Source of the DNA: Eledone cirrhosa
Lineage: Eukaryota
Assembly: GCA_964016885.1 (NCBI GenBank)
Contig: OZ024743.1
Span: 196,168,001-196,232,000 of the forward strand
DNA: 64,000 bases
Direction of reading: 5' to 3'
A program made the position numbers and the translations under genes. Below, in pieces: positions 8,007 through 8,554 of this stretch (within the stretch, counting starts at the first letter, position 1; each line of letters begins with the position of its first letter). The notes under the pieces were generated by a model. It had not been told where the DNA came from. It did no database searches and worked only from the letters and a program-made list of their open reading frames with translations.

Positions 8007-8554
8007 TACAAATGTTAGTACAGCATTAACGAAGCTTTAGGCTGCGGCTAAGCTAACGATTGCAGATTCGGAATGCAGCTTAGCACTCGATGGAGAATAA
8101 TACCCCAGAGTTATAACAATACGTTTAGACAGCTTTGCAAATCAAATATAGCGACAGGCAGTCCAGCCGCATTGCCATAGCAACGAAAAAAACTGAACTC
8201 AGGGAAAGATTTTGACTGACCTGGACCATCACGTGGAGATCGAATGCAACACATAACGCATATCGTATAGCATACAATATACATCACATATAACATACAA
8301 CATCCACACTAGGTTTCTGTAAATCCGAGATCGACTAATTCCGCTTGCAGGGGTCTGCAAGTTAATGGCCTTTGACGACAGAACAAAGGACTTACTTCGT
8401 CAACACGTCTTGCGTTCTATAGCCTCGGCGGGTGTGTTTTCTAGCAGTAAATTTCGCTATAGACACGTGGTTTTCTCAAAGGGAGGTGACCCCCGTTTTG
8501 GCGGTGAATTCGAAATTTGGGACAAAGGAATGAAATTCCCTTAGACAAACCGAA
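8007..8554 (-). mobile_element. Non-coding structured repeat (copy A) with large HHR-like fold
   Basis: Shares about ten collinear conserved blocks with 44939-45432. Inserted in (TA)n. No credible ORF. Confidence 0.7.

What the first reader, a model, noticed from the sequence alone, without database searches (positions are those of the whole stretch)
8007..8554. Large multibranched hammerhead-like RNA shared by two strongly diverged ~550-590 bp non-coding elements (8007-8554 and 44939-45540)
Seen: the copies share only short collinear blocks (cgtttagacagcttt, caacgaaaaaact, actgacctggac, taggtttct, cgttctat, cacgtg, aaggga.gt.acccc.gttttggcgg). On minus, both read YTGAYGA, then stem II (gtaagtcc/ggatttac in A, gtgaa/ttcat in B) with a large insert, then GAAACCT, a long stem III insert, and AGGTC. 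A distal stem I pairs aacg/cgtt. Inserts differ in sequence and length but the junctions are kept. The proximal stem I is not Watson-Crick in either copy (G.A next to the GUC site), which is atypical. Copy B is terminally redundant. Inference: an unusual expanded ribozyme or hammerhead-derived fold in a retrozyme-like unit, with extra conserved blocks outside the core that may be replication or promoter signals.
Basis: partly seen in the sequence, partly recalled or inferred. Interest (0 to 1): 0.75.

Follow-up and report, generated by a model that had tools for sequence, protein, structure and literature searches.

The report
Oversized hammerhead retrozyme with bulged core
Two distant copies of a many-copy, non-coding jumping repeat sit in TA microsatellites and carry an oversized hammerhead-type RNA fold with an odd bulge beside its predicted cutting site; Penelope-like retrotransposons likely copy the repeat, and whether the RNA cuts itself is untested.

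Summary
A (8008-8553) and B (44940-45540) are homologous (nhmmer E~1e-25) members of a many-copy non-coding family lodged in (TA)n. The minus strand has hammerhead core motifs in ordinary type I order, with a covarying stem II and two large inserts.

B is a 586-nt unit plus 17 nt, and public contigs run from the unit's end back to its start. The fixed end lies about 7 nt before a bulged stem, the same geometry as at the ends of a Hydra-clade Penelope-like element in this window.

Best reading: a Penelope-dependent retrozyme copied from a circular or tandem RNA. The mismatch at the base of stem II is already known in Penelope hammerheads.

Stem I is the oddity. Family reads restore 4 bp in A only with a 2-nt bulge next to position 3, which has a slow natural precedent. 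B's stem I stays unresolved. Cleavage and expression are untested.

This scan noted oversized hammerheads and the bulged end-stems before on other DNA (e1-8673761, e1-8671399, e1-8667016). New variant of a known kind.

The parts
8008..8553 (-). Copy A: 5'-truncated monomer (lacks the linker), between two (TA)n tracts
   Evidence: 908 and 1016 contigs (two runs, one sample) and 1636 reads lie on it at >=80%
44940..45540 (-). Copy B: one 586-nt unit plus read-through into the next unit, between (TA)n tracts
   Evidence: end-to-start joints, table 5c
44938..44954 (.). Terminal repeat, left copy (fixed 3' end of the RNA-sense unit at about 44940)
   Evidence: (TA)n loose ends before 44945 in 172 and 240 reads
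45524..45540 (.). Terminal repeat, right copy (88% identical, spacing 586)
8397..8403 (-). A: core box UUGACGA (U3 in place of C3)
45245..45251 (-). B: core box CUGAUGA
8319..8395 (-). A: stem II (8 bp) closing an insert with two hairpins; unpaired A at 8396 and A at 8318 face each other at its base
   Evidence: 8391 C>T in 99% of X1 contig depth makes the stem all Watson-Crick
45193..45243 (-). B: stem II (5 bp) with insert; C at 45244 faces A at 45192; B seems to lack about 23 nt that relatives have
   Evidence: loose ends behind 45231
8219..8317 (-). A: GAAA plus stem III (ACCU/AGGU, 3-nt bulge, long hairpin insert)
   Evidence: variants at 8305, 8306 and 8308 give CCU-AGC-GGA
45146..45191 (-). 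B: GAAA plus stem III (ACCU/AGGU, 3-nt bulge, shorter hairpin)
   Evidence: 45181 T>C restores GGAC/GUCC
8217..8218 (-). A: predicted cleavage site, GUC|A
   Evidence: inference by analogy to hammerheads
45144..45145 (-). B: predicted cleavage site, GUC|A
   Evidence: inference by analogy to hammerheads
8404..8409 (-). A: 5' strand of stem I; in the family it pairs 4 bp with 8217-8214 only if UG (8405-8404) is bulged
   Evidence: offsets; 8406 C>A in 100% of X1 depth and 214 of 219 X6 reads
8126..8165 (-). 3' domain helix UGGAC/GUCUA (B: 45096-45092 with 45060-45056); one of several alternative pairings
   Evidence: 5 of 5 pairs kept, 3 one-sided changes; rival pairings
8085..8111 (-). A: bulged stem S1, ACUC-hairpin-UC-GAGU
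45018..45042 (-). B: bulged stem S1; inner 5 bp has 2 double and 1 single change versus A
   Evidence: 45018 T>A repairs the outer pair
45438..45518 (-). B linker: bulged stem S2, starting 5-7 nt past the unit end; damaged in B, intact in family reads
   Evidence: read by hand sequence plus variants (45444 T>C) and joint letters; not found by the scan on B itself
9800..12290 (-). Hydra-clade Penelope-like element (686-aa RT/EN frame plus N-terminal frame): the type of candidate mobiliser, not part of the repeat
   Evidence: motifs DKT, CxCX5C, RWR against the clade definition; end geometry

Best explanation
A and B are diverged copies of a many-copy non-coding repeat with a 586-nt unit, lodged in TA microsatellites and carrying an oversized hammerhead-type fold, and they are likely a retrozyme copied by Hydra-clade Penelope-like reverse transcriptase from a circular or tandem RNA. 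Steps. (1) Shown: the unit is closed head-to-tail without an ORF, and its 3' end is fixed at (TA)n. (2) Inferred: the minus strand is the RNA. (3) Predicted, untested: the type I hammerhead cuts slowly after GUC (8218, 45145), releasing monomers that are ligated into circles. The bulge between stem I and position 3 would make cutting slow or dependent on a helper. (4) Inferred: the Penelope endonuclease nicks (TA)n and the RT starts about 7 nt upstream of a bulged stem that lies in the next unit. (5) Inferred: copying runs through the cleavage site and stops early (A) or passes once round (B, unit plus 17 nt).
For: Many diverged copies: most contigs and reads are 80-99% alike. End-to-start joints appear in 8 rows with 5 distinct linkers (two runs of one sample). 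No conserved ORF: at most 61 aa within the elements, on different strands. Core geometry occurs 6 times against 0.025 expected. Across 10 proposed helices (40 pairs), 39 pairs hold in both copies; 9 of the 10 pairs that vary stay paired, 3 by double change (an eleventh row had a wrong coordinate and is left out). Family majority letters repair stem II, stem III, stem I (offset 2) and S1. Strand: variable 5-bp helices kept in both copies with at most 3 G-U cells number 6 on minus and 1 on plus; A minus folds at z=-3.25. End rule: both ends of the window's Hydra element and both ends of family C lie 6-7 nt before the same kind of stem, and the background rate is 3.8e-4 per nt. Literature: Hydra elements target (TA)n; a Poseidon RT starts internally at a stem-loop; retrozymes are circular RNAs linked to Penelope elements.
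Against: Only two full copies could be aligned. 11 of 212 variable 5-bp helices (5%) survive by chance, so stem II and S1 are each supported only at about p=0.05. The hammerhead fold is 9.6-12.1 kcal/mol above the MFE in A and B, against 2.6 for family C. B has no good stem I at any offset 0-5, and its family letters there were not shown. A has U3 with G8. B folds better than shuffles on plus (z=-2.50) than on minus (z=-1.66). S2 is broken in B, and only 3 of 5 joint linkers give UCUC. A second, short end before S1, which the Hydra pattern predicts, was not seen among the loose ends shown. There is no sequence homology to the window's Penelope ends, so the mobiliser is assigned by geometry only.
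Confidence: 0.62

Rival explanations
1. Same mobile element, but the hammerhead no longer cuts. The fold is kept as a structural or protein-binding scaffold, and copying uses uncut tandem transcripts.
For: Offset stem I in both families, U3 in A, and a fold 10-12 kcal/mol above the MFE. Both copies span the cleavage site. In the anole Poseidon system, cleavage was not needed for insertion in vitro and no reads ended at the site. A 2-nt insertion at this junction nearly abolished co-transcriptional cutting in HHmeta.
Against: All core letters except positions 3 and 7 are the same in A and B while the inserts no longer align. HHmeta still cuts at high Mg2+. The PAc hammerhead is protein-assisted.
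Confidence: 0.25
2. A and B are leftover 3' ends (pLTRs) of an autonomous Penelope-like family whose ORF is elsewhere in the genome.
For: Same TA target and end rule as the Hydra element. The window's Hydra element also has an enlarged-stem-II hammerhead. A alone could be a 5'-truncated 3' UTR. The genome could not be searched.
Against: In B and in the joints, the unit end runs through about 90 nt of linker straight back into the unit, with no ORF. In the Hydra element the read-through enters the ORF region. Three contigs join an A-type end to the B-type linker (loose end before 45449).
Confidence: 0.08
3. The core motifs are a non-circularly permuted hammerhead (type SGC or CSG), or a different structured RNA, and the missing stem I lies elsewhere.
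For: Permuted hammerheads exist, and earlier notes report them in this genome. Stem I is poor as drawn.
Against: B has one YUGANRA box. A has a second at 8479 that B lacks. The order is C-G-S with nested stems II and III, which is type I. Family reads give A a local stem I.
Confidence: 0.05

Closest known systems
Metazoan non-LTR retrozymes (Cervera & de la Pena 2020, PMC7229834; Li, Clavereau & Pollet 2026, 10.64898/2026.07.22.740005)
   Same: Non-coding, multi-copy, type I hammerhead order, head-to-tail unit, dispersed monomers, co-occurs with Penelope elements.
   Different: The unit is 586 nt against the 170-400 nt described. Both stems II and III carry large inserts (A9 to G12 span 53-79 nt; stem III 41-94 nt). 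Stem I is offset by a bulge. Circular RNA and cleavage are not shown here.
Hydra-clade Penelope-like elements and their hammerheads (Craig et al. 2021, PMC8557442, File S2)
   Same: (TA)n target and type I hammerhead. File S2 lists unpaired oppositions at the base of stem II: U/U in many Hydra rows, and C/A in PLE-X1_cBra, which is not a Hydra element.
   Different: No ORF here. The Hydra hammerheads in File S2 are 80-100 nt with short loops and a stem I directly next to the core. The bulged end-stems are not mentioned in the parts of the paper I read.
Saltern hammerheads HHmeta and HHphage with 2a/2b insertions (Perreault et al. 2011, PMC3088659)
   Same: Short insertion between stem I and position 3.
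   Different: Those are three prokaryote/phage-associated examples. Here the feature sits in a many-copy animal repeat, together with oversized stems.
Type-SGC permuted hammerheads, HRIMA-1 (Eckert et al. 2023, PMC10085705)
   Same: Atypical-looking hammerhead missed by Rfam.
   Different: The block order here is C-G-S and nested, so it is not a permutation.

Membership tests
Type I hammerhead ribozyme | Core CUGANGA, GAAA and NUH in C-G-S order | tested here: met
   B is exact; A has U3
Type I hammerhead ribozyme | Stem II closing the core | tested here: met
   8 bp and 5 bp, 1 double and 2 single changes; the N/A opposition at its base also occurs in published Penelope hammerheads
Type I hammerhead ribozyme | Stem III with A15.1-U16.1 | tested here: met
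   4 invariant pairs; extension restored by family letters
Type I hammerhead ribozyme | Stem I paired directly next to position 3 and the cleavage site | tested here: not met
   G2.1/A1.1 in both copies. 2 bp with a 1-nt bulge in B and in the A family; 4 bp with a 2-nt bulge in the A family only
Type I hammerhead ribozyme | Match to an Rfam hammerhead model | tested here: not met
   No hammerhead hit at E<=10 in either copy; the models do not expect such inserts
Type I hammerhead ribozyme | Self-cleavage after NUH | not testable with these tools
   needs an in vitro assay
Non-LTR retrozyme | Non-coding, multi-copy unit | tested here: met
Non-LTR retrozyme | Head-to-tail repeats with a hammerhead in each unit | tested here: inconclusive
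   End-to-start joints and a 17-nt read-through are shown; no full dimer was seen
Non-LTR retrozyme | Expressed as circular RNA | not testable with these tools
   needs an RNA sample of this organism
Hydra-dependent non-autonomous element | Insertion in (TA)n with a fixed 3' end | tested here: met
Hydra-dependent non-autonomous element | End 5-8 nt before a bulged stem, as in the window's Hydra element (rule taken from scan notes, not from a paper) | tested here: inconclusive
   Holds at 4 of 4 end types of the Hydra element and family C. For B it needs family letters, present in 3 of 5 linkers
Hydra-dependent non-autonomous element | Sequence homology to an autonomous pLTR | tested here: not met
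   Best match to any Hydra 3' end in the window is E>=0.9; the genome could not be searched
Non-circularly permuted hammerhead (SGC, CSG, GCS) | Blocks out of circular order, crossing stems | tested here: not met
tRNA-derived SINE | tRNA-like head with Pol III A and B boxes shared by both copies | tested here: not met
   No tRNA gene; only one-mismatch boxes, with no shared A+B pair

The most novel reading that the evidence does not exclude
A natural, mass-amplified hammerhead in which a conserved bulge at the stem I/core junction and two large inserted domains act as a built-in brake or switch. It would cut only when helped, for example by the Hydra RT protein or by folding during transcription, and stay locked in the circle. 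The circle would then offer the RT a bulged-stem start signal that exists downstream of the start point only in the circular or tandem form.
Probability: 0.2. Interest if true: 0.75.

Novelty: new variant of a known kind. Interest (0 to 1): 0.45.

Why it matters
It gives a small, testable substrate for two open questions. How do Penelope enzymes recognise and copy non-coding retrozymes? How far can the hammerhead core bend in nature? Core insertions next to stem I were described only from salterns in the paper I read (PMC3088659). A many-copy animal family that keeps one would show that slow or conditional hammerheads are selected. It also shows that Rfam and standard descriptors miss such elements. 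If the RNA does not cut, it is a retrozyme whose ribozyme became a scaffold, which is of moderate interest.

Tried and rejected
No genome is held, so there is no genome-wide copy set.

Rfam on the window gave only microsatellite-driven noise below gathering scores among the 150 of 283 rows shown, and no hammerhead on A or B.

Pattern scans found no relatives. Metagenomes gave 4 loci, all one prokaryote-like sequence with nothing beyond the motif. Viral contigs gave 0, 0 and 1 hits; L005 lies inside a 936-aa phage ORF with no nhmmer match. Prokaryote genomes gave 0.

Sequencing runs: no RNA holder listed.

A 'lock' helix (CAGG-U-CAG with CUG-CCUG, covering the cleavage site) is invariant in both copies. 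It has no covariation, my test missed it through an alignment shift, and shuffles give 0.2 such helices by chance, so it stays a hypothesis.

Depth profiles were not used for copy number or truncation, because divergence confounds them. Read-end peaks that I checked fall at AATT, probably the library's cut site.

The nearby Penelope relic at 43252-44617 is not B's parent; it has its own small hammerhead.

The B versus family C match (E=0.023) spans a place where B seems to have a deletion, so I treat it as chance.

The helix table and constrained folds had off-by-one coordinates and were redone; its stem I offset table is valid.

Hairpin, pistol, twister-sister, HDV-like and telomerase-RNA readings were considered by eye from recalled consensus motifs and dropped; none had an Rfam hit.

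Literature searches: 'between C11.1 and G12' gave 0 papers; hammerhead with octopus gave 5 papers, 4 listed, none describing this element by title or abstract.

Full report
1. Observation. A (8008-8553) and B (44940-45431, plus about 110 nt more to 45540) sit between (TA)n tracts. They are homologous end to end (nhmmer E=9.6e-26; BLAST 198 nt at 70% and 97 nt at 74%). No third copy was found in the window. Identity is 61% (281 of 462) to 75% (335 of 447) depending on the aligner; the stem II and III inserts do not align. B has a 17-nt terminal direct repeat at spacing 586. Rfam finds no hammerhead in either copy. There is no tRNA gene and no shared ORF. The genome is an animal one, probably a cephalopod; that label comes from earlier scan notes and recalled repeats and was not tested here.

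2. It is a many-copy family. At 80% likeness, 908 and 1016 contigs (two runs of one sample) and 1636 reads lie on A. At 85%, 1076 and 987 contigs and 1127 and 1163 reads lie on B. Most are under 99% alike. Depth is not a copy number, and the runs may be from another individual or a close species. The tables showed only 40 of 141 variant rows for A and 40 of 83 for B, and 22 of 261 and 24 of 376 loose-end rows. A second organism label holds 3 contigs on A.

3. The unit is closed. Eight rows (table 5c; two runs of one sample; 5 distinct linkers) run from 45498-45508 through a linker back to 44940. Reads left of 44945 continue into (TA)n (172 and 240 reads). So B is one unit plus 17 nt, with a fixed end at (TA)n. 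Three contigs join an A-type end to this linker (loose end before 45449), so A probably belongs to the same unit type and is truncated. No full dimer was observed.

4. The hammerhead. On the minus strand the order is core box, stem II, GAAA, stem III, GUC, which is type I. The geometry occurs 6 times in the window (A, B and four copies of another family, C) against 0.025 expected. Of 40 pairs in 10 proposed helices, 39 hold in both copies, and 9 of the 10 varying pairs stay paired, 3 by double change. An empirical null shows that 5% of variable 5-bp helices survive by chance (11 of 212). Stem II and S1, whose places are fixed by motifs, are therefore each supported at about p=0.05. Family majority letters improve the model: 8391 completes stem II in A; 8305/8306/8308 and 45181 give both families CCU, a 3-nt bulge, then GGA/UCC; 45018 repairs S1. 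Strand evidence favours minus: 6 versus 1 well-formed conserved helices, and A minus z=-3.25 against plus -0.45. B alone points the other way (minus -1.66, plus -2.50).

5. What is atypical. (a) An unpaired N/A opposition lies at the base of stem II. It is shared with family C, which has a normal stem I, and with published Penelope hammerheads (C/A in PLE-X1_cBra, U/U in many Hydra rows; PMC8557442 File S2). It is not new. (b) Stem I: a G precedes position 3 and faces A1.1 in both copies. With 8406 C>A (100% of X1 depth; 214 of 219 reads) the A family forms 4 bp if UG is bulged, or 2 bp if only G is bulged. B forms 2 bp with G bulged and has no clean longer stem; its family letters there were not among the rows shown. 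A 2-nt insertion at this junction is known from saltern hammerheads, where it slows cutting strongly but leaves activity at high Mg2+ (PMC3088659). (c) A has U3 with G8. (d) The hammerhead fold costs 9.6-12.1 kcal/mol over the MFE in these two copies, against 2.6 for family C. I put the chance that the family RNA cuts at a useful rate at about 0.45 (judgement).

6. The mobiliser. The window holds a Hydra-clade Penelope-like element. Its 686-aa frame has DKT and CxCX5C, with RWR in the upstream frame; these match the clade definition, and the clade targets (TA)n. Its two end types, and the two end types of family C, lie 6-7 nt before a stem of 4 bp, an inner helix and a 2-nt 3' bulge (one or two outer pairs vary). 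Background is 3.8e-4 per nt. A and B carry such a stem (S1, covarying). A second one (S2, 45518-45438) begins 5-7 nt past the unit end, inside the next unit. S2 is damaged in B and is rebuilt from 45444 T>C (99% of depth) and 3 of 5 joint linkers (read by hand). The reading of these stems as an RT start signal came from scan note e1-8671399, and I checked the geometry here. Internal RT initiation at a stem-loop is shown in vitro for a Poseidon element (PMC11167929). No sequence homology ties A or B to a given autonomous family.

7. Mechanism. Shown: non-coding, multi-copy, TA-targeted, closed 586-nt unit, fixed end, core motifs with covarying stems. Inferred: minus-strand RNA; Hydra-type RT and endonuclease acting in trans; a circular or tandem template, which is needed because both copies span the cleavage site and S2 lies beyond the end. 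Predicted: slow cleavage at 8218 and 45145, then circularisation. A conserved block 55-60 nt downstream could pair over the cleavage site, but this is not above chance. CACGTG may be a promoter box (recalled, untested). The 3' domain has several competing conserved pairings and is unresolved.

8. Comparison and novelty. It works like a metazoan non-LTR retrozyme (PMC7229834; 10.64898/2026.07.22.740005). It fails one defining test of the canonical hammerhead, the flush stem I, so I file it as a hammerhead variant and not as a canonical member. It is not a permuted hammerhead. What is new is the combination: a 586-nt unit, both stems enlarged, and a core-junction bulge. Five paper searches did not show this element; the library lacks most subscription papers. 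The scan noted oversized hammerheads, twin end-stems and a 493-nt relative in kind before, though look-ups by sequence found nothing.

Papers seen: PMC8557442 (passages, section 11, supplement searches, part 2 of 59 of the supplement); the 2026 preprint (part 1 of 5 and passages; its supplements are closed and may list longer units); PMC10085705 (abstract, passages); PMC7229834 (passages); PMC3088659 (passages, section 9); PMC4209133 (parts 1-2 of 4); PMC11167929 (passages).

9. Verdict. Real, new variant of a known kind, interest 0.45. It would be 0.75 if the bulge proves to be a selected switch.

Noticed in passing
window 8576-8650 (read on minus) and copies near 12090-12195, 33050-33170, 35915-36015: The Hydra element's own hammerhead: stem I CCCC/GGGG, U3-A8 core (UUGAGAA), enlarged stem II (about 55 nt), stem III CGGC/GCUG. 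Read by eye; my descriptor did not cover U3-A8.
   Followed up: partly
window 32403-32997 (+); inverted partners 31644-32406; diverged copy 53058-53560: Family C: 522-nt non-coding unit with a 73-nt terminal repeat, a type I hammerhead with normal stem I, C/A at the stem II base, a 48-49 nt stem II region, palindromic stem III, two end types and a CACGTG box.
   Followed up: partly
window 43252-44617 (+), second 3' end at about 30-258: Penelope relic (thumb, CX4CxxC linker, GIY-YIG-like end; clade not tested; no Pfam hit) with a small hammerhead at 44368. It ends in the same TA tract that holds B.
   Followed up: partly
window 36659-38986 (+): Broken Penelope-like ORF with RVT_1 and GIY-YIG hits and a CX4CxxC linker; Neptune-like by inference.
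   Followed up: no
window 62596 (+), 368 (-), 31393 (+): Further hammerhead-like cores with U/U or A/A at the base of stem II.
   Followed up: no
window 33048-36110: Inverted pair of 5'-truncated Hydra copies, one with the short end and one with the long end.
   Followed up: partly
window 5418-6957 and 20596-22913; 16177-16653: Non-LTR retrotransposon fragments: RVT_1 in the second region, zf-RVT in the third.
   Followed up: no
loose end behind 8115: 72 reads carry A-type sequence that stops 4 nt outside stem S1 and continues into (TA)n; possibly a single locus holding only the tail piece.
   Followed up: no
window 8335-8327 and 45206-45198 (minus): Both families converge on GAUUUCG just before the 3' strand of stem II (variants 8329 and 45204); possible tertiary contact, partner not found.
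   Followed up: no
window 42083-43052: Inverted and direct duplications around a non-TA repeat next to the Penelope relic; not examined.
   Followed up: no
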